DNA of 56,744 nucleotides, taken from Macrostomum lignano (lineage: Eukaryota). Positions 20,389-37,683 of the stretch are shown here, piece after piece. The stretch's first letter is position 1; each line of letters begins with the position of its first letter. Position numbers and translations under genes: made by a program. Location: contig NIVC01002692.1 of assembly GCA_002269645.1 (NCBI GenBank), forward strand, positions 1 through 56,744, read 5' to 3'. The notes under the pieces are model-generated. The model was given only the letters and a program-made list of their open reading frames with translations. It was not told the origin of the DNA and did not search any database.

Positions 20389-21549
20389 GCTGAGAGAGCA
20401 AGAGATTGCACTGCGCACCTACTGCAAGAGCCAAGAGGGAAACTATTGATTTACCTCCTCCCCGATGAGAACCAATGAGCTCACAGATTAAAAGTTGACC
20501 AAGCAACAAGGAATGATGGTGTACATTCTGCAGCACTTGTTGCGATGGAAATTTTCCTGATCCTGTACCCGCGGTCCGACAACCCCCAACCAAAAATTGT
20601 ATGGCAACGAAAAAACTTATAAAACCGGTAACAAGATAACAGAATATATAATTTCCGTTATCCAAAGTCATAACTGAAGCTGACAATTTTCAAGCCCAGA
20701 CATGCTTCCTGTCGAACGCTTGCTGTTCGTCTTCTTGGCGAGCATCCTGGTGGTAGTGACGCTGTTGTTCTACCAAGCCACCGCATCCAGCTCAGGCCAA
20801 AATGAACGCTACTACACTCAGGTGGGCACCGCTGGCGGCAACAGTTTCCCCCCAGCATTCAAAGTGCTCGAAGGCAGCAGCATTCGTTGCTCGATCTGGT
20901 GCTGGCAGACGCCGAGATGCCTCGGTTTCTACTGGACGGTGAGCTCGATGCTGTGCCAGCTGTTTAACGCTTCGGTCTACTACTGGAAACCGTCGTGGGG
21001 TGCCATTGCGGACCAGCAGAGCGAGTTCTACATGTACAACGCCAGTGAGTATTTCTTGTTCATAGATAGCGCGTGCGGATGTTCATAGATAGCGCGTGCG
21101 GACTAGCTGTACCTATGGGAGCTGAGAAATGAAGATGATTTCGCCTCCAGTTTAGGGAGTTCGGCCTTTGACTATTAACAAAATGACTTACAGAAGAAGT
21201 TCATTTTTAACAAGATATTCTCTGTTTAAGGCTACAACTGTATAACAGAATCTTCCGCGGCATCAATTGAAGACTTGTGTCTGGTAATTAGAAGCCGTCT
21301 CCGGTTGAAACGCCTGCTTCATGTGACGGGGGATGCCGCTTCTTCCTCAACAATTATTTCTAGGACTCGTTTTTAGGAAAATTCGATGTTACTTAAATTA
21401 GATTTACAGTAAACCTCATTTCGCGCGTCTCATTTCAGCTCCTCAGAGGCTGCATTTCTTCAACTGCAGCCAGATTTCAGCGGCCTATAGTGCCTTTTGC
21501 ACACGAGCCATGGACAACAACACGAATACGCATTTTTTTGATGGAGGTT

Positions 21550-21678
21550 AGTAGTATGGGATAACAGAACTCTGCCGCAGGAATTTCCGTGGAAAAGCCA
21601 TGGGCCCTAGTGAGTGAACATACGGCCCTATGTAAATCCATTGAGCGACTCTGCCGCAGGGCAGGCCATGGAAATTCC
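21550..21678 (+). repeat. Polinton left terminal inverted repeat (129 bp)
   Basis: Reverse complement of 37555..37683 with 5 mismatches by my count. Confidence 0.95.
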
Positions 21679-22299
21679 GTGAGACCTCCTAGTGAGAGTA
21701 CATTGGTGCAAGTATTTGCGAATGGGGTGGGGCTCCGCGGGAATTCCGTTAACCGCAATGAATGAGTATTGGCAAATGCGTGTTCTGCTACGACGGACAC
21801 AGGCGGTTCGGTTCATAAAACCAGGCAATGCTTTGCTTCTGAATGACATTTAATATTCCATCGGGTATCGTAAAAGGAGGAGGGGCGTGTCTTTATTTCA
21901 ATGATTACAATAAAATCAATTTGCAATTCATGTCTAAAATTTGAGCTACCAACTGTTGAAAAATCACTTGATTTTGGAATTTAAGGATTTTGGAATTTTG
22001 GAATTAATTGAAACTTTTGCCTATTAATTAGGCAAAAGTTTCAATAACAAGATGCTGCTTTAATAAGATTATAATAGCCAAGCATCTCCCCCTTTCTTGG
22101 GGTGGTGGGTGTGTTGCTAAATGGAATTGGACGCTCAATAATTATCAGTTTTATTGCTCCCCAGTCTGGTCGGGAGTTCCAGTTGGCGGCAAGTGCAAAG
22201 GAACTTTTGTACATGTATGCTTTCAATAGAGGCTCTGTATCTGGGTTTTCTAATAAAATTATTTTAAAAAACCGGTTTCTGAGACGGCTGGGTTACTGA

Positions 22300-22393
22300 C
22301 TGTAAACATAGCTAAGCTGTAAACATAGCTAAGCTGTAAACATAGCGGCTATGTTTTTATTAACACAGATTCGAATAAGCGAGGTATATAAGA
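22300..22393 (+). promoter_or_regulatory. Putative promoter of the left Polinton ORF: 3x 17-bp repeat containing TGTAAACA, then TATATAAGA
   Basis: ctgtaaacatagctaag at 22300, 22317 and 22334 (partial); TATATAAGA at 22385-22393, about 100 bp before ATG 22487. Confidence 0.6.
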
Positions 22394-22486
22394 CACCGTA
22401 TACTTGAATACGGGACATAAGTTTCTACTTCTAATTTGAATTTAACTTCAATTTGATTTTTCTATTCAAACATTAAAAAATTTGGA

Positions 22487-23833
22487 ATGAATAAATCGCG
22501 CTGCCCTTCATATGTGTACGAGGTATGCATTTCCTGCAACTCATGTGAGCTCGGTGGCTTAAAACGTCACAAAATGAAAAGCAGCTGCAATGTCAGTCGC
22601 TGGCTGCTTTGCCACGAGTGCCAGACGCGTGAGCTCTTTAATGTGCGCCAGCAAGTTCGAGCTCACAAAAACCACATTATTATTAACTGGAGCTCACCTG
22701 GAGATTTAAAACGAGCCCGCTTTGCTGCCTTGGAGGCTGCCCAGCGTCAAGAGCAGCTCAACATTATCGAGCGCAGTCGAGCACCGGTCAGCGCACTCAG
22801 CCAGACAATTCAGGGCGTCTTTCAGCAGCCTGATGAAGATTTTCAGCACGCTACCGATGCAAACTTTGATCTGCTTGCCGCTGCACTTGCCGCTGTGGAG
22901 CAGCAATCAGATTTTTTTGGTTCAACCGCTGCGCCAGCTGCTGATGCCGGCCTCCCAGCTGACGGTGCCGGCCTTCCAACTACTGATGCCGGCCTCCCAG
23001 CTGACGGTGCCGGCCTTCCAACTACTGATGCCGGCCTCCCAGCTGACGGTGCCGGCCTTCCAACTACTGATGCCGGCCTCCCAGCTGACGGTGCCGGCCT
23101 TCCAACTACTGATGCCGGCCTCCCAGCTGACGGTGCCGGCCTTCCAACTACTGATGCCGGCCTCCCAGCTGACGGTGCCGGCCTTCCAACTACTGATGCT
23201 GGCCTCCCAGCTGACGGTGCCGGCCTTCCAACTACTGATGCTGGCCTCCCAGCTGACGGTGCCGGCCTTCCAACTACTGATGCCGGCCTCCCAGCTGACG
23301 GTGCCGGCCTTCCAACTACTGATGCTGGCCTCCCAGCTGACGGTGCCGGCCTTCCAACTACTGATGCCGGCCTCCCAGCTGACGGTGCCGGCCTTCCAAC
23401 TACTGATGCCGGCCTCCCAGCTGACAGTGCCGGCCTTCCAACTGCTGATGCCGGCCTCCCAGCTGACGATTCCACTGGTTTTGCAGCTCCTTCGGAGTTG
23501 GATACTGCCTTCTTCGAGGATGTCGATTTGGAGCCTGTTGAGCTGGCAAATGAAGAAGCTGAGCAGCAACAGATGCCACCCTACAGGCCTGTTCCAGTCG
23601 CAGGAAAAAATATGGAGCAAGCCAGAATGATGGCAGAAGCAAGCCTATCCGATCTCCTGCGAGAATTCGAACCTCCTACTCCACCGGCTGCACCAGAAAT
23701 CCAAACCGGTGACATCCCAGTCGTAGAAGCCATGCCACCGATGCCACCGTCAGTCTGCATTCAGCTGGTACTACCGAGCAGAGTCGAGGGCGAGTATTTT
23801 ATTGACCTTGGGGAGGAACTCGCATTCGCTTAA
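22487..23833 (+). CDS. Polinton 448-aa protein: Cys/His-rich N-terminus with LxCxE (LLCHE), about 12.5 x 14-aa repeat, acidic/Pro-rich C-terminus
   Basis: Long ORF inside the TIRs, downstream of a TATA box; 42-bp coding repeat TTDAGLPADGAGLP at about 22935..23470. Confidence 0.75.
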   Translation: MNKSRCPSYVYEVCISCNSCELGGLKRHKMKSSCNVSRWLLCHECQTRELFNVRQQVRAHKNHIIINWSSPGDLKRARFAALEAAQRQEQLNIIERSRAPVSALSQTIQGVFQQPDEDFQHATDANFDLLAAALAAVEQQSDFFGSTAAPAADAGLPADGAGLPTTDAGLPADGAGLPTTDAGLPADGAGLPTTDAGLPADGAGLPTTDAGLPADGAGLPTTDAGLPADGAGLPTTDAGLPADGAGLPTTDAGLPADGAGLPTTDAGLPADGAGLPTTDAGLPADGAGLPTTDAGLPADGAGLPTTDAGLPADSAGLPTADAGLPADDSTGFAAPSELDTAFFEDVDLEPVELANEEAEQQQMPPYRPVPVAGKNMEQARMMAEASLSDLLREFEPPTPPAAPEIQTGDIPVVEAMPPMPPSVCIQLVLPSRVEGEYFIDLGEELAFA

Positions 23834-24532
23834 GTAGCTCTTAAAGTGTCCCAGTTCAAAGTATTTAAAAGTAGGGGAAACGAGATTTGTAGATTTTTAG
23901 GGTAAAACCAATGCATTCTACCCTGCATAAATATTAACTAATTACGTTGCACCTCATCGTGCTCATACAGGTTTCTCATAAACAAAGTGAAAAAGAAAAT
24001 AATTTAGGCTTACTGTTCAAACTTATTCTTATAATAAAGCTTTAATAAGCAGCTTTAATTAGTAGGGTGACTAACGAGCATGATTTTTTGCATTGCGAAA
24101 TGCTTTACCAGAAATATAATGGATTGATGGTTGCTTTTAATGAAAGCTTTTGCACTTTCTTGGACTTTGTTGAATTCATTACTTGTTTTTTTTCAATCAT
24201 GTGAATATCTTCGAAGAAGTTATAGGTTCACTCGCTTATAGAATTACCGTTAGGTTCACAGCATCTACTCAACTCTATGAGTATAATATGGGATTGATGA
24301 TCTATGATACCCAATGTTTAGAATGACATGAATTTGGTTTGTCAAGCATGACTTTGGTTAGATTCAATTTCTGCTCCATAGAGCTCTGAATGCTGGAAAT
24401 TTATCACTCCACTACATCTCTGACAGAATTGCACTTGGGTTAAATTTATCAAACAACACTTTTACACTGGAATTTCAGCAGCATTGAGTTCTTCACTAAA
24501 TGTCGCTCTATTTCTAATATTAATTCTCTGCA

Positions 24533-27500
24533 ATGGCCACCTCATCGAGTCAAGAGGACGAGCCGGTGGACCCAGCTGTCAGCCACGAATTTGGACCGAG
24601 TGGTAAGTTTTTTCATTCCATTGCTGGTTTTATGAACTCATGCATTTCTGTTTGTTGCATTCCTGTCTCTTAGCAACGGAATTATTTATATTTTTCTCGC
24701 CTACACAACAATTCCCAAATGGTTCCCAACAGGATTAAGCCGGAGAACTCACAATAATGAGACATTTTTATTCCTCATTAGATGAATTGACAAAAATGCG
24801 AAAGCAGAACTCCATCTATTTCTTCAATAATAACTCTTCAAATTCTTTTTTTACACTTATACGTAGCTCGTATTGATTAATAAAAAAATATTAAATCTAG
24901 ATATAAGGTAGTAGGATAAATAGTATACTCGTAAGTGTAAAAAAGGGCAATAAAATATTCGACTTCCATAACTCCCAGAGACATTTCTCATCATTTCCAC
25001 TTTCCATAAATATTTTTAATACTATCTTCCCTTCTTCAATTGTAGGACCTTCATTCACCCTGGCGTTAAAAACCAGCGCTCACGAAGATGTTCTTCAAGT
25101 TCATCGATTTACACCTGGAGCTGCCACTGAAACATTCGAGTTTCTCGATTTCTGCAAAATCGCAGTGCAGCAGTGTCTTGAAATTCGCTTCGACTCTTCG
25201 GATAATTGCTCTGTTAAAGCTCAGATCAAACTGAATTTGCGCATGGTCAGAGTGCAGGCGTCAGAAGCTGTCAAGGGGGAGGATAAATGGATGAGCACAC
25301 AACTCGGATTGGTGGTAGATATACAGGAGTTTGATGATTGGTGGAGACAGCAGTTTACAGAGCTGGAGCGCAAAGTCGATGTCTACAACACCAACGGTAG
25401 TGGCTGGATAATTGAAAAAATCAATTTTTTTGAACTTTACTCAGCTCTCGTCGAACGAGTTTCCTACTACACGGGGCATGCTGCGGAATTTATTCTACCG
25501 ACTCCACTTCTTCGGAAGAAGGCGGTTATTTGTCCTCCAAGCAATGGTGTAAATTGCTTTCTTTACGCATGCCTTGCTTTTCTGCACAAGGAAGACAACA
25601 AAATAAAGAAATCAGCGCAACGCGAGTCTTCCTACACTGACTGGCTGGATGAACTTAACATGAGTGGAATTGACTTGCCAATCAATGTCACCGACCTTTC
25701 CATTGTTGAGAGACTGAACCCGAGACTTTGCTTCACGGTTTTCATCTGGGAGAAAGAGAGCGCTCAAGTCCTCCGCTTGCCTACTGCAGCTACAATTAAA
25801 GATCGAGAAGTTGTTCTACTCTTATTTATTCCACCATCAGAAGACGAGGCCTCGGGTCATTGGTGTGCTGTTTCAAGCATCAACAGGCTTCTTAATAGCA
25901 AGGCAGCTCTGCATCGGCGGAAGTGGTGTGAGCGCTGCTTGCTGCCCTTTCATAGTGATGCAGCCTTTGAAGAACACAGCCGAGCTCCTTGTCAACCTGG
26001 AGTGATCAACGTCAAGGAAGAGTTGCCAGATGAAAGGAATAATATTCTCCGATTCTCATCATGGGAAAAAACAATTAGTCCGCCATTTGTTGTTTACGCC
26101 GACTTCGAAGCATTGAATGCTCCATGCCAAGAAGATTCGATTGCTGGTATAGCAACGAAGAAGTTAACTGAGCACATTGCTGTTGCTGCTGGCTACATCG
26201 TGCTGCACAGAGAAGGGATGACTGGTCTAGCGCCCAGAGGAGCGGATGATAAAGTGAGCACTTTTGTCAGCGACGATCCTAATAAGTGCATTTCCGATTT
26301 CCTGCAATCGCTGGAGAAGCTCGCTCGTGAAGTTTACGGCTGGAACACGGAGTTCAGTCGACAAGCAGCGATAAGAACAGAGATGGCAGGGCGACAGTTC
26401 AGAGAAGCCACAGCTTGCTGCTATTGTAGAAGCGAATTCACGGAAGGGTCCAATAAACATTGGGATCACGACCACCTCAGCGGAGAATTTCGGGGAGCTG
26501 CGTGTGCTGATTGTAATATGAAGGCCAGACTAAAGAGGTCTTTCCTTCCCGTCGTGTTCCACAATTTCAAGGGGTACGATCTCCATCTCATGATGTCATC
26601 CGCTTTGGGTCTGATGGAGGGTTGGAAAATCTCCGTCATCCCTCTGAATCCAGAGCAGTTTCTGTCGATGAAAATCGAATTTAAAATCGGCGAGTATGAG
26701 AGTGAGGGCAAGATCAAGCCTTTAAATTTTACTATTCAGTTCATTGATTCGAATCAATTTCTTAATGCCAGCCTCTCACAGCTCATCAAAAATTTACCAG
26801 AGGCTGAATGTCGTATCACTAGTCGCCTACGCAGCAGCAGATTCCCACTGCTATCATCCGAAGTGCTTTTCAGCAAGGGAGTTTTCCCGTATGACTATCT
26901 TAAAAATTCAGACGTGCTGAAGGATGCCGTGCTTCCCAGCCAAGAGAGCTTCTACAATGCTCTGACTAAGAGCCACTGCACCAACTCTGACTATGAGCAT
27001 GCTCAACGCGCCTGGCGAGAATTTCAGGTTTCAAATCTAAAAGAGTACATGCTGTGCTACCTCGAGCTCGACATCAGGCAGTTGGCTGATATTTTTGAAA
27101 ATTTTCGCAAGATCAGCATGCAAGAGGATGGCCTTGATCCAGTCCATTTTATTTCGACACCAGGCCTATCATTCGCTTCGGCATTGAAATCCATCAAGTC
27201 AGGGATTGAACTGCTAACAGATGCGCAGATGTATTCGCTGTTTGAGCGCGGCATTCGCGGCGGCATGTCGTTTGTTAACATCCACAAAGTGCAGGCTACC
27301 TCAGCAGCGGGCGCCAGCACTGGTGTTGACAGCAATGAGGATGTTGATGGTGGCACTCCTACTATTCATGCTGGCCTCACCGAGCTTCTTGCTGTGGATG
27401 CAAACAACCTGTATGGACAGGCGCTCACTATGAACTTACCAGTCGGAGGATTCCGTTGGCTGGACGATGATGAGCTGCTTTTGTGGACTGAAGATCGCAT

Positions 27501-28688
27501 TCGAGGACTCAAGCTAACCGATCCACTCGCCTACCTCTTTGATGTTGACCTTGAGTATCCCCCAGAGATTCACGAAACCACCGAAGACCTACCATTTGCA
27601 CCGGAAAAGGCTGCCCCGAATTTCAGGGAATTTCCTGAATACATGCAGCAGCTGTGGGAAAAGGTCGGTACGGAGAACTCCACCTATCATCCGACAGAGA
27701 AGCTGATGCTCACTTGTCACGATAAGCCTTCCTATGTGGTTCATTCCTCTATTTTGGCGTTCTACCTGAACCATGGAATGCGGGTTAGACGCATCAATCG
27801 CATGATTGAGTTTCACCAAGAGCCTCTCTTTGCTGCCTACGTCGAGAAAAATAGCCAGAAGCGGGCTGCAGCGAAAACCAACTTCGAAAAGGATTTCTAC
27901 AAGTTAAAGAATAACGCGCTATTCGGCAAAACTATGGAGAATGTGCGAAAGCGGCGTGATATTCGAGTCTGCACCAACGTGGAAAAGGTAAAGGTACTGC
28001 TTGCCAAGCCGACAATTACCAATTTTATCATAATTACTGATTCACTAAGCGTTTTGGAACTGCAAAAGACAAAATTAAAGCTCGATCGGCCTATTTTTAT
28101 CGGGCAATGCGTCCTAGACTTTTCGAAAATGATTATGTACGAGCTGTTTTACGACAAACTGAAGCCCTGGATAGAGAACGATGGAGGTGTCATCAAGCTA
28201 TGCGGTGGTGATACCGATTCTTTCTTTCTCTCAATCAGCAACATGAGCGTTCAGTCTAAAGTTCTACCGCTGTTGAAGTCGAAGCAGCTGCTCGACACTT
28301 CAAACTATCCTCAAGAGCACGCGCTATTCTCGAATGATTTAAAAGCGCGACTTGGCTGCATTAAGGATGAAGCAGCCGGTGCTCGCTTTGAGGAGTGGCT
28401 GCTCCTAAGGCCGAAGCTTTACTCATTCAAGGCGAGTAGCCAAGCCGCGGAAAAGAAGAAGGCCAAAGGAGTTCAAGGATGCATTGTTAAGAAAGAGCTG
28501 GCTCACAGTGACTACCTAAGGGTGTTCAATGAGCTCTGCAGCCATTCTGTCGTTGTTCATCGTATTGCCAGCATCCATCACCGACTGTACACTTTGCAGC
28601 AGCGGAAGTGTGCCTTAAGCATTTGGGAAGACAAGCGCGCTTGGCTGAGCCCTAACTATAGTCTCCCATTTGGTCACATTCGGCTGCT

Positions 28689-28757
<69 letters not shown>

Positions 28758-28845
28758 GCAACAGCAGCAACAACAACAACAACAACAACAACAACAGCAG
28801 CAGCAACAGCAGCAGAAATCATCAAAACGGCGCCGACTACTTTGA
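24533..28845 (+). CDS. polB: Protein-primed family-B DNA polymerase, predicted join(24533..24602,25046..28845)
   Basis: Exo I YADFE, endonuclease-VII-like insert (CCYC..DHDHLSGEFRGAACADCN), Exo II HNFKGYD, DANNLYG, KLKNNALFGK, GDTDS, PKLY; polyQ tail and KRRR. Frame open from 25046; phase-1 intron GTAAGT..TTGTAG. Confidence 0.92.
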
Positions 28846-29405
28846 AATTGAATAATGAGTACAACAAGCTTGCTAAACAAAAACAATAATTTCTTTGCGA
28901 TTTCAAAGTTTCTTTCTTTGACATTGAATAAAGGTTAACCGCTAATCTAAATAGGATTTTTTCCAAATGCAATAAAAACTTTGATCATCTGCTGAGGCTA
29001 GCAACAATTTTTTGCTTCACAATATTTACTTACAATTGCGCGATGATGATAATGAAACCAATGCTTCGTTAGTGGTGGTGGTGGTGTTTGCGGTGATGGC
29101 ATGTGAGAGTTTTATTTTTTTCTAATTTTACCTGTACTTTGTGGTTGGTTTTTTGAATCCTGATATTGCTTTATAAGTTTTAATATATTCCATCTGCTTT
29201 TGGACTATTTTTTCCTATTTTTGTAGTGGTTTATCTGCTTGCTCGTATTTGCTTTTAGCTTGCTATTTGTTTATCTCTACAAGATGTTCACCACTGGTTT
29301 TTCATTGCAATTAAAAATGAAGACAAAAAAGCTAGTGCATGAGAGAGAATTAATTTGAATATTTTAATTAAACAAGCCGCGATTTATTCTTTCTTTTTAT
29401 TTATT

Positions 29406-29972
29406 TCAGTTTGAAAGCAAGCAAGCTAATAGGGAACGGTCTGATTGTAGCATATGCTTAGACTTTGCTCCGCTGAGCACAAATGAGCCATTGTGAAAAA
29501 GCGTACACTTGCAGTATTGAAGCTGACAAACTAAAGCAGTAAAACTTTCAGGTTCATATTTCGCATTCGGTAGCACTTCACAGAGGTTTCTTAGTGATAG
29601 AGCCTTGGGCAAGTCTATTTTTCCATAAGCAGTAATAGTCTTAATTCGGACACAAACGGATTGACGAGGCAGCAGTTGAGGCGGAACTCTGCGATGCAGC
29701 ATAGCCACGAAGCGACGGGCAGCCTTGACTGAGGCCGAGTAGCTCCGGGCGCCACAGATACTCAGTTGTCCAGTCGGATAGAGCAACAGAGTCACTCTGG
29801 GATTCCGCATCCTCTTGATGAGCACTCGGGGCCAGACGGGGCGATAGATGACATGAGCCATGCTGAGAGCCAGTTCCCGCAGAGGCAACTGGGCACCCCT
29901 GCCTCCAGCCAGCCTCAGATCCACGCCGCCAACCAGATTGGTCACTCGCAGGGCTGTCGCAGGTGTACTCAT
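29406..29972 (-). CDS. TBP: Polinton-encoded TATA-binding protein homolog (188 aa, both core repeats)
   Basis: VTNLV..VDL, YRP.WP.V.I.RMRNPRVTLLLYPTGQL.ICGARS...S..AARRF; then YEPESFTAL...CTLFHNGSFVLSGAKS. This matches the TBP core consensus in both halves. Confidence 0.88.
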   Translation of the reverse strand: MSTPATALRVTNLVGGVDLRLAGGRGAQLPLRELALSMAHVIYRPVWPRVLIKRMRNPRVTLLLYPTGQLSICGARSYSASVKAARRFVAMLHRRVPPQLLPRQSVCVRIKTITAYGKIDLPKALSLRNLCEVLPNAKYEPESFTALVCQLQYCKCTLFHNGSFVLSGAKSKHMLQSDRSLLACLLSN

Positions 29973-30486
29973 TTAGAGAGTCCTTTCTGTCAGTGGTGCT
30001 GTCTTTGAGAGCCTTTGAGTGGTGCGGGCACACCTCGCTTCTTAAGTTGATACAGAACTTTGGCTTCAGCCAGTTGTAGTAGAGCAATACATTTTTCACT
30101 GCACAACCAGTATCAGATGCTTGAATCAAAGGTGATCCCAGATCCTCTAGGTTGTACACCTGTCTGCCAAGCAGCTCAGTCAGAAAGATGGACTTTTTCA
30201 CCCCGCTTGTCCAGGTGGGGCCGTAAGCAATGTTTAGAATGTCATTTGCCAAATGCATGTACGATCGGGATCCATCTGTCCACTTGAAATGATGCAAATT
30301 CTTTGAGAGCTTTCTGTAATGCACCTGCATCTCAGGTGAGATTCGCTCCCATGAGAACGGAGAGGCGTACACGTGATGAGTGATATGGTAACTGCCTGCC
30401 CGGACTTGGGCAATGGCTAGCTCCTTCACAACGAAATCTCTGCTCGATCTCTCGCGTGGGAAGCCTTGGAAGTCAATATAGTTCAT
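29641..30486 (-). CDS. Polinton accessory protein, possibly DEDD/DnaQ-like fold (first about 165 aa); 3' part overlaps the TBP ORF
   Basis: YIDFQGF..FVVKELA, HHFKWTDG, VYNLEDLG, CAVKNV..Y.WL pattern recalled from Polinton hypothetical proteins; fold call is inference. Confidence 0.6.
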   Translation of the reverse strand: MNYIDFQGFPRERSSRDFVVKELAIAQVRAGSYHITHHVYASPFSWERISPEMQVHYRKLSKNLHHFKWTDGSRSYMHLANDILNIAYGPTWTSGVKKSIFLTELLGRQVYNLEDLGSPLIQASDTGCAVKNVLLYYNWLKPKFCINLRSEVCPHHSKALKDSTTDRKDSLNEYTCDSPASDQSGWRRGSEAGWRQGCPVASAGTGSQHGSCHLSPRLAPSAHQEDAESQSDSVALSDWTTEYLWRPELLGLSQGCPSLRGYAASQSSASTAASSIRLCPN

Positions 30487-30526
30487 GATCGGATGGTTTC
30501 AAGATGCCTGATATCGGGAAGCCGAC

Positions 30527-31219
30527 TCAGTTCCCCTTCTTAAATAGTTTTTTCCTGTTCAGCTGTAGCCAAGCTCTCCCACTCCCGAATCCTTTAACTG
30601 TATGATGAGCAGGGGCGGCCTCTGGAGAAACAGCAGGTTTAGAAATTAGCTGCCTAACTGACTTTCCTATGGCCGAAGCTGGGATGTTAAGCTTTTTATC
30701 TTGGAGCAATGAGACAAACTCACTCCAGCCCACCGGCTCGCTGGCACATTTCGAATCCCTCACGGCACTGTGAAACAAATCCAGGATGTTTGAGGAGGGT
30801 ATTGTCTTCCCACAAATTTGCGCCTCGCCATTTTCGGACACCCGAATCAGAGAAGGATTGCCAGATAGGATGGCCCATAGACTGCGGGCTCTCGCTTTAA
30901 ACTTCTGCGGCACGGATTGGGTGATCTTTTCCCCCCAGCTGCTTGGTGCAATATCAGTTTTCAGCATCTTTGCATCACTCGCAGGTACCGCATCATCCTT
31001 TCCAGTCCGCTTGCGCTTGGCCAGCAAACTCTTCATCGCATCATGGTACATGGCAGCTTTCACATCGTCTGGGCAATCCTCGGCAAGCAAAATATCATTG
31101 CATTTCCTCTGCGCATATCTCACAGCAGTGTCGAGTTCAGACTCAACTGGCTTCAAATTCTGTGTGAGCATGTCGTATTCTGACTTGGGGATCAGAACCA
31201 TTTCTGAGAACTTATTCAT
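30527..31219 (-). CDS. Polinton hypothetical protein (230 aa)
   Basis: Co-oriented ORF in the gene block; MVLIP..YD.L and G..I..SNILDL motifs resemble recurrent Maverick proteins. Confidence 0.75.
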   Translation of the reverse strand: MNKFSEMVLIPKSEYDMLTQNLKPVESELDTAVRYAQRKCNDILLAEDCPDDVKAAMYHDAMKSLLAKRKRTGKDDAVPASDAKMLKTDIAPSSWGEKITQSVPQKFKARARSLWAILSGNPSLIRVSENGEAQICGKTIPSSNILDLFHSAVRDSKCASEPVGWSEFVSLLQDKKLNIPASAIGKSVRQLISKPAVSPEAAPAHHTVKGFGSGRAWLQLNRKKLFKKGN

Positions 31220-31559
31220 TTTGTTTCTTTTTCTTCACTAGCTTTATTAGAATGTAGAGAATTTTGATAAAACCCGTATTTAGCAGATCCGCAGCTCTTC
31301 TATGTGTAGAAATTTTGCGGATTATTTGCTTTTGCTTCACTAGCGCTGCCTTTTCAGTGAGTGAGAACGACAGAGTGTTTTGCAATAGGTTATAGCAGGC
31401 CTCAATGAGAAATTCATGTACTGCTTTTGGACCCGCTCTGATCAACAGACGTTTAAAGCTGATGGAATATTTCGGTGAGGCGAGAACATCAAACAAACTT
31501 TCATGTGAGTCGAATGTTTCCATTATCATTAGTGTTGCAGAATATAGAGCAAATGGCAA
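31212..31559 (-). CDS. Small basic Polinton protein (115 aa) with amphipathic C-terminus
   Basis: LIEACYNLL.N.L.F....K..L.K.K.IIRKI pattern typical of the small gene next to the Polinton ATPase. Confidence 0.7.
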   Translation of the reverse strand: MPFALYSATLMIMETFDSHESLFDVLASPKYSISFKRLLIRAGPKAVHEFLIEACYNLLQNTLSFSLTEKAALVKQKQIIRKISTHRRAADLLNTGFIKILYILIKLVKKKKQNE

Positions 31560-31576
31560 AATCTCGGCTGTTATTC

Positions 31577-32230
31577 TTAAGTGTAAACCAGGTGGGGTCG
31601 CTGATTGGGCAGGATTCGAGCCCGGACCCGCAGCTCATCAGGGGTGGAAGGGTGAAAATCCAGGAGCAGGTAGGCTCCCCTGCCGTGCGATGTCACGTGC
31701 TTGAACACTGACAGCAGAAAGCCGGGCTTCTCAGCAAAACACTGCCTGCCCAGCGCCGCAATCTGCAGCTGGTCTCTGGGGTTCTTCATGATCACAAAGT
31801 ACATCGCATTCAGACTCATTGTTCGCAACTCCTTCCCTTTAAAAAATACATTTTGGGTCAGCATAACCAGAAAGCAGGGCAAATGATGGGCAATTCCAGT
31901 GAAAACATTTCGCATTGCAGCAGAATTGGAAGTTTCTTCAATCAGGTCATCAAATACAACCAGGTCATTGGGTCTCAGTGCGGTCTCGATACTGCTGGGA
32001 AATCCCTGCTGCAAGTGCACGCCGAGACTGCTGAGCTCAGAGTGTGCTGCTTGTGAAATTCCGTAGTACCACAGAACTCTCCCAGGCTTCACATCAAACA
32101 TGACATCCTTGTATTGTATCAGATGTTTCACGAAGGTTGTCTTTCCTGCATTTGTAGGCCCGCTGACAATCATGCAGCTTCCTTGTCGCAGGCGCACATC
32201 ATAACAGTTTATCCGCTCACGTGTTTCCAT
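31577..32230 (-). CDS. DNA packaging ATPase (A32/FtsK-HerA type)
   Basis: Walker A GPTNAGKT, Walker B LVVFDDL, LTQN, RTMSLNAMY, YLLLDFHP. Confidence 0.93.
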   Translation of the reverse strand: METRERINCYDVRLRQGSCMIVSGPTNAGKTTFVKHLIQYKDVMFDVKPGRVLWYYGISQAAHSELSSLGVHLQQGFPSSIETALRPNDLVVFDDLIEETSNSAAMRNVFTGIAHHLPCFLVMLTQNVFFKGKELRTMSLNAMYFVIMKNPRDQLQIAALGRQCFAEKPGFLLSVFKHVTSHGRGAYLLLDFHPSTPDELRVRARILPNQRPHLVYT

Positions 32231-32263
32231 CGCCTGTTGAGCTAAATCCTTGATTTTAAAAGT

Positions 32264-32782
32264 CTAATTAAATTTATTTTTTCTTAAGCAACTCTCAAAC
32301 CTTTGCAGAATTCTTTCATTCAAGTGGCTCTGCTGATTTGCATGGAGGTGCCGCAGAACCCACTCAAACGAGCGCTTGAAACGAAACTTTTGATAGGCAA
32401 ACAAGAGACAGAACAAACCGCATTTAGCAGAGTTGCAGCTCTGAATTCGATTCACATTGCTACGTAAGTAGAATGGAGAATACCAAAAGGATTTCAGTGC
32501 TCTGTGAATGATCTCTAAAGTGCTTGAGTCCCAGCCCAGAGAGTTAAAGAGTTCTATGGAATTCTCCTTATTGGCATAACAAACCACCCAGTGACCAAAG
32601 GACGAGCCGTACTGAAGCAGAAAGAAAATAAACCTACATCGAGATAAATTTCTTTTGAGAGTTGCTCGCTGAATAAAGTTTAAAGCATAAGATGTTTTAT
32701 TTATTGAATTCAAGACAATAATTAAATAGTTATTTTGTGGCAAAAAGCTTTTAGCCAGTTTAAGCAGTTGAAAAGCATCCAT
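32264..32782 (-). CDS. Adenain-type cysteine protease
   Basis: GHWV, FNSLG, QS.NSAKCGLFCL (His, Asn/Asp, Gln, Cys order of adenoviral proteases). Confidence 0.9.
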   Translation of the reverse strand: MDAFQLLKLAKSFLPQNNYLIIVLNSINKTSYALNFIQRATLKRNLSRCRFIFFLLQYGSSFGHWVVCYANKENSIELFNSLGWDSSTLEIIHRALKSFWYSPFYLRSNVNRIQSCNSAKCGLFCLLFAYQKFRFKRSFEWVLRHLHANQQSHLNERILQRFESCLRKNKFN

Positions 32783-32805
32783 ATTAGCGTTGCGCCAGCG
32801 TACTC

Positions 32806-34088
32806 CTAGGATGGAAAATCTAGCAGAATCTCCCTGTGCTTCGTGACCTCAATCAGTGAGTCATACAGGCACATAACAATCAGAGATACAGGCTCCTCCA
32901 GGGCCTGTCGGAAGCGAATCTCCAGCCGCAAATTTCCCTCCTTCTGTCCGTACCACAGGGCCGCTCCCTCAGGCGTGAGATCGAATGCGAAAGCTGTGTT
33001 GCCGTTGGAGAACAACTGGTAGGGGACCCACGGAACCGAGTTGGTAGGGCTGGCAGACTGACAGCTTTTCAGGTAGTGCAAGTACTCTCTCACGAATGAA
33101 TTATTCTCAGGTGCAAATGCAGCGTGGCACATGGCTTCACCACCTTTCTTTAGTGCTAGCTGGCTGAGGTTGAAGCTCTGGAACTCGAAGGGGCTGGAAT
33201 GGTGATGGCCATTGAAGGCTCGGTGGTTCACGAAGACCAGCATAACGAACTTCGGCAGTTTGCCATGGGTGAATCCTTCAATGTTTTTTGACTGAATTCC
33301 CTGGGGTAGAATGAAGTTTTGCATTTCGGTTCGCTCGATGGGGTAAAGTGCGTTCTGATTGGTAAGTCCCTGCTCATGCGCTAGGCTGATGTGAGGCGCC
33401 ACTTTGACTCGGCGCAGGTTCAGAATACAATGGGAAATTTCAATTCGGTAGGCTGTGTTGTTCTCATCTGGGGTTCGGATGGCAAATGCAGCTTCACTGG
33501 GCATCAGCTTGATGTGCAGGTGTAAATTGTTCAGCAGCAGAACAGGACACTGGAAGATGTCGCTGAGCAGCGGTCCCGCATACTCCACCCAGCGGGACTC
33601 CCTGTGTCTCTCGGCATGCCCCTCAGCAGCAGTTTCGGGTTCCAGGAATCCGGCGGGGTAGAAATTTAACTGCTGAGCATCGGATGAGCTCATGAGAGCT
33701 TTTAGGTAGGCATGGTAGGGGTAGAGCTGGTCTCCGCCAGAGACAATGCGCTGGTTGATGCTCACGATTACATCTGAGAATGCCGTAGATAGGACAAAGT
33801 TTTCTGGGTGCACCCCACTGTCTCTGCGCTCAGTGACAACTCCATCGGCATTCCGAACCTCCTCCCTCATCAAAGCCCCGCCAAGCCGGACTAGGCGACA
33901 GCGAATATACAGGAATGAGCTCAGCAGATCAGTGTACTCATCAGCCGATGGATGGCAGTCGAATTCAATTGGTGAGTTAGTAGAAATAGAGTTCACGGGG
34001 TGAATATCAACATACGTGATTTTTCAATAGCAGTCTGCAGCACGGGGGACTTGAACAAATCGAGTCTCGGGTTGAATCCGTAAGCCAT
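32806..34088 (-). CDS. Major (double jelly-roll) capsid protein; 1-nt deletion at about 34017 in this copy
   Basis: Near-identical to intact 427-aa ORF 42012..43295; acgtgat here versus acgttgat there; position and size fit the Polinton major capsid. Confidence 0.85.
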
Positions 34089-34090
34089 TG

Positions 34091-34507
34091 CTATGAGAGT
34101 GAGTCCAGAACACGCTTCACAGTTTCTTTGCCCACTTTTTGTTTTCTTTTGCCTGTTTTCTTGGCCTGTGTTTTAGTCGTTCTTTTCTTAGGTTGCTTGC
34201 TTGTTCTGACCTTGCTTGTTTTGCGTGCTTCGCCACTTTTTTTCTTCTTCTTCATGCGCACCTGCTTTTTATTCACCTTTTTAGCCTGTCCTTGATTTCC
34301 TATGTTTCTATTACTCGTACTATTGCTTCTGCTGCTACTGCTGGTTTGTACAGGCTTTGATGCTAATGATGATGATGATGTTATGGAAGGTGCTGGAGGA
34401 GGCTGGTAAGTCATTATTCCAGGAAAACTCCCGCAGCCATAGAGCATGGACTTTTCATTTCCCGTCCGAGTCCCTGAATACTGCCGAATCAGCTGCTGAT
34501 AGTTCAT
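34091..34507 (-). CDS. Lys/Ser-rich basic protein (138 aa), candidate DNA-condensing core protein
   Basis: Strongly basic C-terminal half; sits between the two capsid genes. Confidence 0.7.
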   Translation of the reverse strand: MNYQQLIRQYSGTRTGNEKSMLYGCGSFPGIMTYQPPPAPSITSSSSLASKPVQTSSSSRSNSTSNRNIGNQGQAKKVNKKQVRMKKKKKSGEARKTSKVRTSKQPKKRTTKTQAKKTGKRKQKVGKETVKRVLDSLS

Positions 34508-35331
34508 TGCATTGGTCTCTCACGTATCAGAATTGTGAGCAGAACAGGGCTGCCGCTATGAGCAGTCAGTGAGAAGCCAAAGATGTCTCGCAGTTGAACT
34601 CGAATGCTGTGTAGAAAATTTGTTTTCTGAATGGGGAAGAAAACTGTTTTCTTAAACACTTTGCTCCAGTAGCTTCCCCATCCGGCTTCAGGATTCATGT
34701 TCACAGTTCGCAGCAGGGAATTCCAGTTGCAATTAGTTGACTCCACAATGCTACAATGCACGTTGATCAGATTGGTGGGCGGGCAGCCAATGTGGTACAT
34801 GGAAACTTGGCGCCCAGGTGGAATTTTCACGGACTGATTTCCGAATCCCAGCCACTGCAGAATTTTACTTGATGGAAGGAATAATTCTGCTCGAGCCGTG
34901 TTGTTGAGCACTACCGTTCTCAATTCTTGGATCTCAAACTTTATGCCAATATCTCTAGCGCTGCTCCGCCCCATTAAACCAGACTCATCAGCCTCCATTT
35001 CAGACTCCCTCTCACTCATTGCATCGAAGAACAGTGACTCAGAGTTGGCCAGCAGCTCATTCATGCGCTCCACCAACTCCTCCACTCTAGCAAAGCGTCC
35101 GGGTTGAAGAACCAAGGCCTCATGCTCTCTTCCATCTGAGACAGTGAAGCAGTAAGGCTCGTCAACATTGAACCATGCAGCAGGCAGATGGATTTCAGCC
35201 AGACCTGCCTCATAGTCCACATTTCGATCCAAGTAAATAGGTGAAGGCAGGTGAAAATGAAAGTCAGCAGGAGTACCTTCAGCATTTTCGCTGTTAATGA
35301 TGATGCTTCTCATAATTGGGAATGGCTGCAC
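34504..35331 (-). CDS. Minor capsid (penton-like) protein; likely ATG start at 35313
   Basis: NSE......PADF.F.LP.PI.L....YEAGLAEI.LP, I.VHCSIVE, LLR.V, I.VQLRD..G pattern of Polinton minor capsids. Confidence 0.8.
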   Translation of the reverse strand: MQPFPIMRSIIINSENAEGTPADFHFHLPSPIYLDRNVDYEAGLAEIHLPAAWFNVDEPYCFTVSDGREHEALVLQPGRFARVEELVERMNELLANSESLFFDAMSERESEMEADESGLMGRSSARDIGIKFEIQELRTVVLNNTARAELFLPSSKILQWLGFGNQSVKIPPGRQVSMYHIGCPPTNLINVHCSIVESTNCNWNSLLRTVNMNPEAGWGSYWSKVFKKTVFFPIQKTNFLHSIRVQLRDIFGFSLTAHSGSPVLLTILIRERPMQ

Positions 35332-35343
35332 AATGTCGGCATC

Positions 35344-36411
35344 TTACACTTTTCTTAAGTCCTTCTCATCCACCCAGTCAGTGGAGTCGTAGCCGGCCCA
35401 CTTGACCAGATATCGGATCTTTCCCTGCCGCTTCTCAGTCTTCAAAATCTTTTCAATCACATACAGCCGCTGCGACTCCGGAACGGCCTGCAGTTCATGC
35501 TCGTGAAAAAGCCCACGAATCTCTTCTCCTTTCATGTCTTTTATCTTGTACATGTAGGGATAATGCTTTGGAGCTCTGGACACCACCGTGTACACTTCTT
35601 CGCTCCAGTTGGCCTTGTACCCTTTTCTAAAAAGCCTGGGTGCATTGGAAATCCGCACAGACTGGTTTTCGCTGAACTTTGGCTTTCCCAGCTTTTCCAC
35701 AGTTTCAATCGCTTTCCCGTCATATAGGCTCATCCAGACCTCGGACTCGTTCTCCTGGCTGACATTCGTTGGGGCCATTCGTATGCTTCTGTGGTATGTT
35801 TTGTTGTAGGACTTCACTAGCTTAGGCAACACATCAAGCCAATGCAGAGTGCTGTTGTGAGTGAAGTAGCGCCACATTTTGCTCTTTAAAGTTCGGTTCC
35901 ATCGTTCAATGACAGCCGCCTTCTGCTCACTGTTGGTTGGGAATGCCAGGATTCCCCTTTCCATACAGCATTGGCGAAAAGTAGAGTTGATAAACTCTTT
36001 CCCCTGATCAGTGCGAACAGTGCGCGGTTGCCGCTTTGAACTTCTTAATATGCTCTCGAATGCCGACTTCACTTCAATAGAAGACTTGTTCTTTAATGCC
36101 CTCGCCCATCCGTACTTGGACAGCACATCAATGCATGTTAGAATATACCTGTAGCCGTTATTATACTTGGAAAAAGGAATCATCTCCACCAGATCCAACT
36201 CCCATTGGTCATCAATACTTCGAACTATGATTGGGGCCCTCGGATAATTCCTCCTTGCTGGCTTATGTAATGTGTAGACTGTCTGATCGTTAAGCCAGTT
36301 TTTCGCAGCTTTTTCACTCACTCGGATACCCTGCGTGCGAACTTCATTAATAAATTTATTGCAGCCAGAAAAGCTTGCTGGCTGCTCAGGGTTAAAGTAA
36401 ATCTTTTCCAT
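35344..36411 (-). CDS. Retroviral-like (rve) integrase with C-terminal chromodomain
   Basis: WELDLVEM, RTDQGKEF, ERWNRTLK (DDE triad), YN.TYHRSIRMAP, YVIEKILK....YLVKWAGY...WV. Confidence 0.95.
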   Translation of the reverse strand: MEKIYFNPEQPASFSGCNKFINEVRTQGIRVSEKAAKNWLNDQTVYTLHKPARRNYPRAPIIVRSIDDQWELDLVEMIPFSKYNNGYRYILTCIDVLSKYGWARALKNKSSIEVKSAFESILRSSKRQPRTVRTDQGKEFINSTFRQCCMERGILAFPTNSEQKAAVIERWNRTLKSKMWRYFTHNSTLHWLDVLPKLVKSYNKTYHRSIRMAPTNVSQENESEVWMSLYDGKAIETVEKLGKPKFSENQSVRISNAPRLFRKGYKANWSEEVYTVVSRAPKHYPYMYKIKDMKGEEIRGLFHEHELQAVPESQRLYVIEKILKTEKRQGKIRYLVKWAGYDSTDWVDEKDLRKV

Positions 36412-36631
36412 TTTTAATTAGAGAAAAAATTAAACTCATTTCGCATTCTTAAGTTCACCAGTAAACTAGCATAACTATAGAGAGAGATGCTTATTTTATT
36501 TTATTTTTAATTTTAAACGAGCTCATTTAATAGGACATTAATGAATAAGCTGAAAAAGCTGGATAAATAGAACTGTTAGACATCAATACAGATGGCATAG
36601 CAATGTCCACGCATAGTCACTTAAAAAGTTA

Positions 36632-37360
36632 TCAAGCACTTTTGTCTGCGTCACCATCCTCTCCACCATTGATCACTTTGGGCAACTTGATTGCATTTTG
36701 CCTGCGCAGGGGCCACGGAAGCTTTCGTTTGTGACAGCCGCTGTTGCCGAGCCCTGAAGCAGCACGGAACCGGTACCACAGTGGGTCGTGCGACAGGTCG
36801 CTGTCTTGCTGGGGTATGCGCCCGACTGAAGTCTCTGGCAGAACAGGCGAGCTGGTTGCATTGTCCGACTCGACGATGCGCAGCCTCTTCTCTTCTTCTT
36901 CTTCTTCTTCGCTGACCGGCAGAGTTTCTTGGCCCTCATGCTTGATGTCCTCGGCCTCCAGCTGATACTCACTCTCCGCCGACTTCTCTCGCAGCTCGTT
37001 GTCGATCCACTCGGCCTTCTTCCAGAGTTCTCCCCATAGACGGGGAGTCAGCGCCACTGAGTTCCGCCGCAGATAATCCTCTGTACAGTCTTCCGGCAGG
37101 CGCTTCAGCCAGATGATACCCCTGCTGACCACAACGAGTTTATCAAAGCCAAGCTTGACTGTGACGCTGTGCCGATTGACTGCCGAGTGCACAAGCTGGC
37201 GTTTCAGCTGCTTCAACTTCTCCCATTGGTATGCATTGAGGTTAAAGCCAGGGATGCCCGCTCTGAGCCCGCTTTCAGAGGAGAAGAAACGTCGGATTGC
37301 AATAAAGCGATGACCTTCGTACTCTTGCACTTGAACTTTGAAGCCGTCACAGAGATCCAT
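36632..37360 (-). CDS. PC4/Sub1-like ssDNA-binding protein with two PC4-like repeats and acidic tail (242 aa)
   Basis: KVQVQEYEGHRFIAIRRFF....RAGIPGFNLNAYQWEKLK matches the PC4 core; second SVALTPRLWGELWKKAEWIDNEL; poly-Glu. Confidence 0.75.
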   Translation of the reverse strand: MDLCDGFKVQVQEYEGHRFIAIRRFFSSESGLRAGIPGFNLNAYQWEKLKQLKRQLVHSAVNRHSVTVKLGFDKLVVVSRGIIWLKRLPEDCTEDYLRRNSVALTPRLWGELWKKAEWIDNELREKSAESEYQLEAEDIKHEGQETLPVSEEEEEEEKRLRIVESDNATSSPVLPETSVGRIPQQDSDLSHDPLWYRFRAASGLGNSGCHKRKLPWPLRRQNAIKLPKVINGGEDGDADKSA

Positions 37361-37433
37361 TAATGATATGTTTCTTTAAGAAGGATGCACAAAAATTCCT
37401 TTCGTCATGAAGCCAACCTCAAAAAATCGCCCA

Positions 37434-37442
37434 TCTTATATA
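37434..37442 (-). promoter_or_regulatory. TATA box (TATATAAGA) upstream of the PC4-like gene
   Basis: tcttatata on + strand, about 75 bp upstream of ATG 37360; same 9-mer as at 22385. Confidence 0.55.
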
Positions 37443-37554
37443 TACTTTCTAGGCGGAGTGGGGTGGGTGCAATAATGAGTTTCCTTCAGTACATATACCA
37501 GCATGCGCTTTGTTATCTCACCGGGCCCCCATGCCCACCCGATGTGCCCCCCAT

Positions 37555-37683
37555 GGAATTTCCATGGCTTTCCCTGCGGCAGAGTCGCTCAATGGATTTA
37601 CATGGGCCCGTATGTTCACTCACTAGGGCCCATGGCTTTTCCACGGAAATTCCTGCGGCGGAGTTCTGTTATCCCATACTACT
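37555..37683 (-). repeat. Polinton right terminal inverted repeat
   Basis: Ends ...cccatactact followed by TSD gaggtt. Confidence 0.95.

What the first reader, a model, noticed from the sequence alone, without database searches (positions are those of the whole stretch)
24533..25164. Spliceosomal intron predicted in the Polinton polymerase gene
The long ORF has no nearby ATG (it is called from GTG 25165) but is open from 25046, just after a pyrimidine tract and TTGTAG. Upstream, ATG 24533 opens a 70-nt exon (MATSSSQEDEPVDPAVSHEFGPS) ending at G|GTAAGT. Both junctions are phase 1 and in frame, giving a 443-nt intron. This implies nuclear transcription and a possible splicing-level control of replication.
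Basis: partly seen in the sequence, partly recalled or inferred. Interest (0 to 1): 0.7.

Follow-up and report, generated by a model that had tools for sequence, protein, structure and literature searches.

The report
Spliced first exon of Polinton polymerase
The DNA-copying gene of a virus-like jumping element, probably from a flatworm, most likely begins in a short separate exon joined by an ordinary host-type intron, which is unusual because the core genes of such elements are normally described as intron-free, but the splice has not been seen in RNA and nothing shows that it acts as a switch.

Summary
The coordinates are exact, and the intron is probably real. The element is a 16.1-kb Polinton with terminal inverted repeats and a 6-bp target duplication. 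The closest named relatives of its polymerase come from Macrostomum lignano. The acceptor at 25045/46 lies two codons before a confidently modelled terminal-protein domain. Exon 24533-24602 is the most GC-rich, most coding-like stretch of the 1.2-kb spacer and ends at its only strong GT donor. Two further leads came up. A phase-1 GC donor in the upstream gene ORF1 (23789/90) lies where gene models of a sister family join ORF1 to the polymerase, so a fusion isoform is possible. A distant Polinton (L104) has three phase-1 leader exons before the same domain. No splice junction was observed; no confirmed RNA run was available. Control of replication by splicing is untested, and nuclear transcription is expected for an integrated element anyway. 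This scan found spliced pPolB leaders before, on other DNA. Verdict: a variant of a known kind, interest moderate.

The parts
21544..21549 (.). left target-site duplication GAGGTT (right copy 37684-37689)
   Evidence: a paralogous host stretch holds the empty site once at 53338-53343
21550..21681 (+). left terminal inverted repeat, 132 nt, begins AGTAGT
22385..22392 (+). TATA box, the only TATAWAAR on the + strand of the element, about 100 nt before ORF1
22487..23833 (+). ORF1, 448 aa: Cys/His-rich N-terminus, 42-bp tandem repeats, conserved C-terminal motif; function not assigned
   Evidence: no Pfam family for the N-terminal part, no usable Atlas hit
23790..23795 (+). candidate GC donor (AGG|GCGAGT), phase 1 in the ORF1 frame; possible alternative 5' splice site for the 25045 acceptor (1256-nt GC-AG intron)
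   Evidence: inferred
24033..24038 (+). AATAAA, probable poly(A) signal of ORF1
   Evidence: inferred
24473..24478 (+). TTTCAG, fits the YTNCAG trans-splice acceptor motif reported for M. lignano; 54 nt before ATG 24533; weak lead
24500..24517 (+). 5-codon upstream ORF in the frame of the first exon
24533..24602 (+). predicted first coding exon of pPolB, 70 nt, GC 0.60, ends in phase 1
24603..25045 (+). predicted 443-nt GT-AG spliceosomal intron, GC 0.31; donor GTAAGT 24603-24608; pyrimidine tract and TAG 25024-25045
   Evidence: no Rfam match in 23500-25400 at E up to 1
25046..28845 (+). main exon of the protein-primed DNA polymerase (terminal protein, vOTU-like domain, exonuclease with HNH insert, polymerase, poly-Q tail)
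25048..25455 (+). terminal-protein (D1) domain: strands 3-11, 16-23, helix 29-49, strands 54-70, 73-83, helix 92-115, loop with Ser118 (25399-25401, predicted linking residue), strand 120-136
25060..25062 (+). in-frame CTG in good start context (accCTGg), model residue 5; rival non-ATG start
25243..25245 (+). first in-frame ATG of the long ORF, model residue 66, inside the terminal-protein domain
25555..25860 (+). vOTU-like core between Cys170 (invariant in 60 sequences) and His271 (nearly invariant)
   Evidence: assignment by comparison with 10.1101/2024.03.18.585575
26407..26520 (+). endonuclease VII / HNH insert
   Evidence: PF02945, E 3e-07
29406..29972 (-). TBP-like gene
   Evidence: PF00352, E 1e-22
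31577..32230 (-). P-loop packaging ATPase candidate
   Evidence: weak P-loop families only; Pox_A32 E 0.21
32264..32782 (-). adenain-type cysteine protease
   Evidence: PF00770, E 4e-05
32806..34088 (-). [quoted passage not shown]
35344..36411 (-). retroviral-like integrase with chromodomain
   Evidence: PF00665 E 2e-12, PF00385 E 3e-05
36632..37360 (-). PC4-like gene, behind the element's second TATA box (37442, - strand)
37552..37683 (-). right terminal inverted repeat, ends ACTACT

Best explanation
The pPolB gene of this integrated Polinton has two coding exons. Host RNA polymerase II transcribes it (inferred), the host spliceosome removes a 443-nt GT-AG intron (inferred), and translation starts at ATG 24533, giving about 1289 residues: a 23-residue acidic, probably unstructured leader, then the complete terminal-protein domain, the vOTU-like protease, exonuclease and polymerase. 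Shown: the signals, their phase, the coding-like island, and that the folded domain begins two codons behind the acceptor. Inferred: that splicing happens, and that the exon's job is simply to supply the start codon. The intron sits in the variable linker ahead of the first folded domain, where it does no harm; it is most likely a constitutive, inherited feature of this flatworm-type clade and not a control device.
For: (1) Coding-like signal starts at the acceptor: GC 0.31 in the intron against 0.45 in 25046-25242; coding score -19.6 bits for the in-frame stretch 24907-25044 and +13.7 for 25048-25164. (2) Of 120 homologues, 107 align to the N-terminal 330 residues; 51 alignments begin before the first ATG and 15 at least 20 residues before the GTG codon. 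(3) The model of 25048-26040 has pLDDT 90 with strands from residue 3; its order of elements matches the PRD1-like terminal-protein fold described in 10.1101/2024.03.18.585575 (section read), and its best PDB matches are Y-family polymerases (E about 0.02), the likeness that paper reports. GTG 25165 is residue 40 and ATG 25243 residue 66. (4) The best 70-nt coding window of the whole spacer starts exactly at 24533, in frame; the most GC-rich window starts at 24535. (5) 24603 is the only strong GT donor in the spacer and, of 7 in the whole window on both strands, the only one on the coding strand of the element's genes. (6) In three M. lignano gene models of a sister family the polymerase part begins at the same Gly, in the same register to the conserved SAH motif. 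P0002 has 34 residues of AT-rich-codon type ahead of a Gly at nearly that place (FYMINK 11, GARP 4, against 4 and 12 behind it), and P0003 is called from a Met inside the domain. These rows form one clade with the window's protein (support 100). (7) Locus L104, a distant Polinton, has a phase-1 acceptor just before the same domain and three open phase-1 exons upstream (82, 54, 102 nt).
Against: All support is from DNA and protein comparison. The exon's coding score is mostly composition (18.2 bits in frame, 16.2 and 13.8 in the other frames). No homologue of the 23-residue peptide was found, so its conservation is untested. Both differences seen inside the exon in run X10 fall on first or second codon positions, the opposite of what strong protein constraint would give, though two changes say little. 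No TATA box precedes the exon. Sister-family gene models join ORF1, not a small exon, to the polymerase. A CTG in good context at 25060 could start a nearly complete domain without splicing. For P0002, P0003 and P0005 only proteins were seen, no DNA, so their introns are inferred.
Confidence: 0.72

Rival explanations
1. ORF1 is a 5' exon as well: the GC donor at 23789/90 is spliced to 25046 (1256-nt GC-AG intron), giving an ORF1-terminal protein-polymerase fusion of about 1700 residues, as a minor isoform beside the short-leader form or as the main form.
For: Best donor-like site of 22380-25045 when the second base is ignored (5.83 against 5.57; next 3.42) and the only phase-1 GT/GC site of 5.5 or more in 3455 codons of the element. 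It lies at the Gly where three M. lignano models join ORF1-like sequence to the polymerase. The left arm has one TATA box, ahead of ORF1. Relatives have long N-terminal extensions, up to 528 codons, often with Cys/His fingers.
Against: ORF1 homologues P0124, P0125, P0127 and P0128 are stand-alone proteins whose C-terminal motif runs on past that Gly, so ORF1 is a protein in its own right. Given the residues E-G-E-Y, such a site arises with probability 0.29 from codon usage, and about 0.1 somewhere in a gene of this length (1 of 3455 codons times about 450; my estimate). The three models are near-copies of one family and skip several conserved polymerase stretches, so their junctions look like automatic predictions. 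A poly(A) signal follows ORF1 at 24033.
Confidence: 0.2
2. No splicing is needed: translation starts at a non-ATG codon, best the CTG at 25060, from a transcript that starts in the spacer or is trans-spliced at 25046; the upstream 'exon' is a promoter element or a relic.
For: accCTGg is in frame and would lose only four residues; M. lignano trans-splices about 30% of its genes (PMC8629364, passages).
Against: The CTG position is Ser in the sister family. It leaves the GC-rich, ATG-to-donor island in matching phase unexplained. The published spliced leader ends in ATG, but joined at 25046 that ATG would be out of frame, since the acceptor is phase 1.
Confidence: 0.07
3. The intron is real and also regulates the element: retention gives a 46-codon product and no polymerase, so splicing gates replication.
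For: Unspliced RNA cannot give the full protein from ATG 24533; an upstream 5-codon ORF is present.
Against: Both splice sites are close to consensus, as for a constitutive intron; an early stop on retention is true of most introns; no data on regulated retention.
Confidence: 0.1
4. The signals are chance, and the gene starts at GTG 25165 or ATG 25243, or this copy has lost its 5' end.
For: An in-frame ATG exists at 25243; P0003 is called from an internal Met.
Against: These starts remove two strands and a helix of the terminal-protein domain; the element looks young (6-bp duplication intact, repeats 95% alike, polymerase frame open); shuffles give the donor-exon combination 19 times in 2000.
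Confidence: 0.04

Closest known systems
Polintons/Mavericks (polintoviruses, animal adintoviruses) and their pPolB
   Same: TIRs, 6-bp target duplication, 16 kb, pPolB with terminal-protein and vOTU-like domains, rve integrase, adenain protease, P-loop ATPase, double jelly-roll capsid protein, two convergent gene arms.
   Different: Core genes are described as intronless in vertebrates (PMC8097293, passages) and in a nematode Maverick (10.1101/2022.07.12.499685, passages). Here the pPolB start lies in a separate exon. In my sample of related loci, 61 of 69 ORFs with a terminal-protein hit run open for 59-528 codons ahead of the domain, 7 are broken pieces and 1 (L104) looks spliced. The element also carries TBP-like and PC4-like genes.
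Adenovirus E2B (pTP and Ad-pol mRNAs)
   Same: Replication proteins of a polinton-derived virus made from spliced mRNAs; pTP is spliced from two coding exons, and pTP and pol mRNAs share 5' exons (PMC11304566, passages). That the shared exon gives the first few residues in human adenoviruses is recalled, not from a call.
   Different: Adenoviruses encode the terminal protein separately and use one leader with two acceptors; here terminal protein and polymerase are one chain, with one acceptor and one, perhaps two, donors. No sequence homology of the leader was tested; this is an analogy.
Introner insertions in dinoflagellate Maverick-Polinton-like elements
   Same: Spliceosomal introns inside Polinton-like elements (10.1101/2025.03.18.643946, passages).
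   Different: Those are recent, repeated mobile introns acquired mostly after integration. This intron has no second copy in the window (top 60 rows), and appears shared across a clade whose polymerases are about 50% identical; an introner origin could not be tested without the genome.
pPolB2 of nematode and oomycete Polintons (HNH-containing)
   Same: HNH/endonuclease VII insert in the polymerase (10.1101/2023.08.22.554363, section 8).
   Different: Membership of pPolB2 was not tested (no reference sequences at hand); flatworms are not among the phyla that the section lists for pPolB2.

Membership tests
Polinton/Maverick | terminal inverted repeats with short end repeats | tested here: met
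   132 nt, 95% complementary, AGTAGT...ACTACT
Polinton/Maverick | 6-bp target-site duplication | tested here: met
   GAGGTT on both sides, once at the empty paralogous site
Polinton/Maverick | protein-primed family B polymerase | tested here: met
   PF03175 E 1e-13; N-terminal model matches adintovirus proteins, best E 8e-20
Polinton/Maverick | retroviral-like integrase | tested here: met
   PF00665 E 2e-12
Polinton/Maverick | [quoted passage not shown] | tested here: met
   Atlas features 0.97-0.98 to PF21738 clusters (family on 24% and 65% of members); 30% identical to the L104 gene; single-sequence fold failed
Polinton/Maverick | maturation protease and packaging ATPase | tested here: inconclusive
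   protease met (PF00770 E 4e-05); ATPase has a P-loop but only weak family matches
Polinton/Maverick | intronless core genes (as usually described; typical, not defining) | tested here: not met
   pPolB is predicted to be split; the other genes start with an ATG close to the ORF start
pPolB with fused PRD1-like terminal protein | four-stranded sheet, optional extra strand, two helices, Ser/Tyr in the loop before the last strand | tested here: met
   Ser118 nearly invariant
pPolB with fused PRD1-like terminal protein | vOTU protease domain with Cys and His | tested here: inconclusive
   Cys170 invariant, His271 nearly invariant; relatives named OTU domain-containing; fold match to an OTU protein only at E 0.04
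U2-type spliceosomal intron | GT donor consensus | tested here: met
   GTAAGT; fits the GT[G/A]AG motif reported for M. lignano
U2-type spliceosomal intron | pyrimidine tract and YAG | tested here: met
   0.8 pyrimidine, TAG; CAG is the commoner acceptor in M. lignano
U2-type spliceosomal intron | branch point | tested here: inconclusive
   loose motifs at 24967, 24986, 25015, 25035; too degenerate to count
U2-type spliceosomal intron | removed from the mature RNA | tested here: inconclusive
   no run on record as RNA; contigs only
U2-type spliceosomal intron | splice sites kept in diverged copies | not testable with these tools
   no genome held; fetched loci are 26-44% identical at protein level; laid runs are near-identical copies
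Group I/II self-splicing intron or other known RNA | Rfam covariance-model match | tested here: not met
   0 matches at E up to 1 in 23500-25400
Introner | many near-identical intron copies across the genome | not testable with these tools
   no genome held; no repeat of the intron among the longest self-matches of the window

The most novel reading that the evidence does not exclude
The left arm is one transcription unit from a single TATA box, and the polymerase exon has two alternative phase-1 donors: a strong GT donor on a 23-codon leader exon and a weak GC donor inside ORF1. One RNA region would then give ORF1, a short-leader polymerase and an ORF1-terminal protein-polymerase fusion, an adenovirus-like alternatively spliced early unit in a Polinton. 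Since spliced leaders before the terminal-protein domain also appear in an unrelated Polinton (L104), N-terminal modules of pPolB may be swapped at a recurring phase-1 boundary.
Probability: 0.2. Interest if true: 0.65.

Novelty: new variant of a known kind. Interest (0 to 1): 0.42.

Why it matters
Polinton core genes are treated as intron-free, and surveys call elements intact on that basis (PMC8097293) or annotate them by plain ORFs (PMC9356565, passage). A hidden first exon means such pipelines truncate the terminal-protein domain or score live elements as damaged. It also ties these elements to the host spliceosome, which could limit the hosts in which a mobilised element is expressed (inference). 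If the host is M. lignano, a laboratory animal, a single RT-PCR settles the gene structure. The effect on basic biology is modest unless the two-donor model holds.

Tried and rejected
RNA evidence: no RNA holder listed; of 24 runs none is on record as RNA. I laid 4 of them (three guessed RNA, X19, X16, X10, from three studies; one guessed DNA, X13) on 23480-28680. All are contigs. No joint at 24602/25046 or 23789/25046 and no loose end near either site was listed; contigs of the guessed-RNA runs run straight across the donor (3 of 3) and the acceptor (3 of 3), and also through the spacer, as DNA would. Contigs drop rare forms and the RNA label is a guess, so this is a blank. No difference was listed at the ATG (covered in 3 of 4 runs by the listed pieces), donor or acceptor (4 of 4), but the copies are near-identical, so it is no conservation test. 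No own genome. Searches for spliced products: ORF1 C-terminus, near lengths, 0 hits of 186 candidates; polymerase N-terminus among shorter proteins, 0 of 121; exact look-ups of window proteins not found. Single-sequence scan of viral contigs found nothing; alignment scans gave 30 and 80 loci, none close. No solved structure by sequence. Capsid fold from one sequence failed (pLDDT 31). A general trans-splicing layout was not supported: YTNCAG within 150 nt of the start in 3 of 14 sites, about chance. Literature: 10 searches and keyword passages or sections of 13 papers gave no description of a spliced first coding exon in a Polinton pPolB. The library lacks most subscription papers and Repbase entries, and no supplements were read, so this is not proof that it is not in print. 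The joined protein was not built, so its fold as one chain stays open.
Full report
1. The observation. Every coordinate is right: ATG 24533, a 70-nt exon ending GTG|GTAAGT, a 443-nt intron, TTGTAG|G at 25045/46, both ends phase 1 and in frame with the 1312-codon stop-to-stop ORF 24907-28845. Two details are off: the frame is open from 24907, and an in-frame ATG stands at 25243. In 2000 dinucleotide shuffles of the 1151-nt spacer a donor as good appeared 250 times, with an in-frame phase-1 ATG 54 times, with an exon of 60 nt or more 19 times, and with GC of 0.54 or more 0 times. Thresholds were set after the fact, the donor matrix is a recalled approximation, and shuffling flattens GC, so about 1 in 100 is the fair figure.

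2. The element. It spans 21550-37683 (16,134 bp), with 132-nt inverted repeats 95% alike, ends AGTAGT and ACTACT, and a GAGGTT duplication; a paralogous host stretch shows the empty site at 53338-53343, inside an F5/8 type C domain gene. It encodes pPolB (PF03175) with an HNH insert, rve integrase with chromodomain, adenain protease, TBP-like and PC4-like proteins, a P-loop ATPase candidate and a double jelly-roll capsid protein. It is a Polinton. The closest named homologues are Macrostomum lignano models (51-53% identical over the aligned parts), so the host is probably a Macrostomum flatworm; this is inferred.

3. The acceptor is needed. GC rises from 0.31 to 0.45 at 25046 and the in-frame coding score turns from -19.6 to +13.7 bits. 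Of 120 homologues 107 align to the N-terminal 330 residues; 51 alignments begin before ATG 25243 and 15 at least 20 residues before GTG 25165. An AlphaFold model of 25048-26040 from a 60-sequence alignment has pLDDT 90; strands begin at residue 3 and follow the order strand, strand, helix, strand, strand, helix, NGSG loop, strand. This is the PRD1-like terminal-protein fold, with Ser118 where 10.1101/2024.03.18.585575 places the linking residue (section 6 read). The best PDB matches are Y-family polymerases at E about 0.02 (none under 0.001), as that paper reports for this fold, and the best viral matches are adintovirus and related polymerases. Starts at residue 40 (GTG) or 66 (ATG) would destroy the domain that primes replication. 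So the start lies upstream of 25046 on another exon, or at the CTG at 25060, which is not kept in the sister family.

4. Which first exon. Its donor is the only strong GT site in the spacer and the only one of 7 in the window that lies on the coding strand of the element's genes. Stops at 24515 and 24521 and no AG between them and the ATG make it a first coding exon, not an internal one. Against it: no homologue of the peptide was found, no TATA box precedes it, and the two differences in run X10 hit first and second codon positions.

5. A second donor. Three M. lignano models of a sister family run from ORF1-like sequence straight into the polymerase at the same Gly and register as our acceptor. 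At the matching Gly of ORF1 the window has AGG|GCGAGT, phase 1, the best donor-like site of 22380-25045 if GC is allowed and the only such site in 3455 codons. Splicing there would give about 1700 residues. But four ORF1 homologues are stand-alone proteins whose C-terminal motif continues past this Gly, the site has probability 0.29 given the residues, and the models skip other conserved stretches, so they look like automatic predictions. I give it 0.2, as an extra isoform.

6. Relatives. The window's polymerase, P0005, P0002 and P0003 form one clade (support 100) next to P0004, whose ORF is continuous with a finger-bearing N-terminus (quick tree of 50 rows chosen from the top hits and loci, midpoint root for drawing only). 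P0002 has 34 residues of AT-rich-codon type before a Gly at nearly the acceptor position; P0003 is called from a Met inside the domain. Both fit an intron there, but their DNA was not seen. Among 69 ORFs from the 110 fetched loci that have a terminal-protein hit and 300 nt upstream, 61 run open for 59-528 codons ahead of the domain (59 with a Met there, 2 open at the contig end), 7 are broken pieces and 1, L104, has a phase-1 acceptor just before the domain and three open phase-1 exons of 82, 54 and 102 nt upstream, the first with CxxC pairs (counts made by hand from the table). L104 lies far from the window's clade; the label needs at least two changes, which fits separate gains but also repeated loss; no one-clade test was run.

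7. RNA. No run is on record as RNA and the four laid runs are contigs without a joint at either candidate junction. This is a blank, told under Tried and rejected.

8. How it most likely works. Shown: signals, phase, coding island, domain boundary. Inferred: host polymerase II transcription, spliceosomal removal of the 443-nt intron, translation from 24533, a short acidic leader ahead of terminal protein, vOTU-like protease, exonuclease and polymerase (about 1289 residues). How the exon gets its 5' end is open: a TATA-less promoter in the spacer, or processing of an RNA from the ORF1 promoter, perhaps by trans-splicing at the TTTCAG at 24473, which fits the motif in PMC8629364 (passages) but is a weak lead. 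Near-consensus sites point to constitutive splicing; regulation is untested.

9. Against what is known. Intact vertebrate Mavericks are described with intronless genes (PMC8097293, passages), as are the core genes of a nematode Maverick, where only cargo genes have introns (10.1101/2022.07.12.499685, passages). Introners occur in dinoflagellate Maverick-like elements (10.1101/2025.03.18.643946, passages) and group I introns in cryptophyte PLVs (PMC12220804, passages). Adenovirus pTP and pol come from spliced E2B mRNAs (PMC11304566, passages). Keyword passages of PMC8363768, PMC12721341, 10.64898/2026.07.28.741278, 10.64898/2026.10.13.758929 and PMC9356565 and of 10.1101/2023.08.22.554363 describe no spliced pPolB. 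Ten searches found no paper on a spliced first exon of a Polinton pPolB; the library is incomplete and supplements were not read. Earlier notes of this scan report leader mini-exons and internal introns in pPolB genes of other genomes; they are unchecked AI notes, but L104 is my own case of the same layout.

10. Verdict. Observation confirmed; intron probable (0.72 for the exact two-exon model, about 0.9 that the acceptor is used with some upstream coding exon); regulation unsupported. New variant of a known kind; interest 0.42. The two-donor, adenovirus-like reading has probability 0.2 and would deserve 0.65.

Noticed in passing
window 31054-40275 and 40262-49481: A 9.2-kb tandem duplication (99.8% identical) repeats the right half of the element and its flank; the junction lies in a 23-bp satellite. 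It may be real or an assembly artefact. The capsid gene is frameshifted near its 5' end in the first copy and continuous in the second.
   Followed up: partly
window 29406-29972 (-) and 36632-37360 (-): The element carries a TBP-like gene (PF00352, E 1e-22) and a PC4-like gene (PF02229, E 9e-05): two transcription-factor-like proteins in one Polinton. The TBP-like gene overlaps the end of ORF 29641-30486.
   Followed up: no
window 22385 (+) and 37442 (-): The only two TATAWAAR boxes of the element lie ahead of the first gene of each arm, which raises the question how the ten or so inner genes are expressed.
   Followed up: partly
window near 23809: All four laid runs differ from the window by one base of length in a homopolymer near the 3' end of ORF1, so the last codons of ORF1 are uncertain.
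   Followed up: partly
window 20432-21549, 37684-39272 and 52210-54928: The element sits inside one copy of a tandemly repeated host gene with an F5/8 type C (galactose-binding-like) domain; the copy at 53196-53636 is uninterrupted.
   Followed up: partly
window 22487-23833: ORF1 family: Cys/His-rich N-terminus and a C-terminal strand motif conserved in P0123-P0128, with a low-complexity middle (42-bp repeats here); no Pfam family for the N-terminal part, no Atlas hit.
   Followed up: partly
L104:3369-4313: A distant Polinton from a metagenome contig has a TATA box, a possible non-coding first exon (donor at 3438) and three phase-1 coding mini-exons ahead of its terminal-protein domain; a further acceptor-like site at 3770 was not resolved.
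   Followed up: partly
window 28690-28814: A CAG/CAA repeat gives the polymerase a long poly-glutamine tail before a basic C-terminal motif that looks like a nuclear localisation signal.
   Followed up: no
window 25726: Contigs of runs X16 and X10 leave the window's sequence here with the same loose letters, perhaps an insertion in another copy of the element.
   Followed up: no
window 1350-3559: Fragments of a reverse-transcriptase gene (PF00078, below the curated cut-off), probably a decayed retroelement.
   Followed up: no
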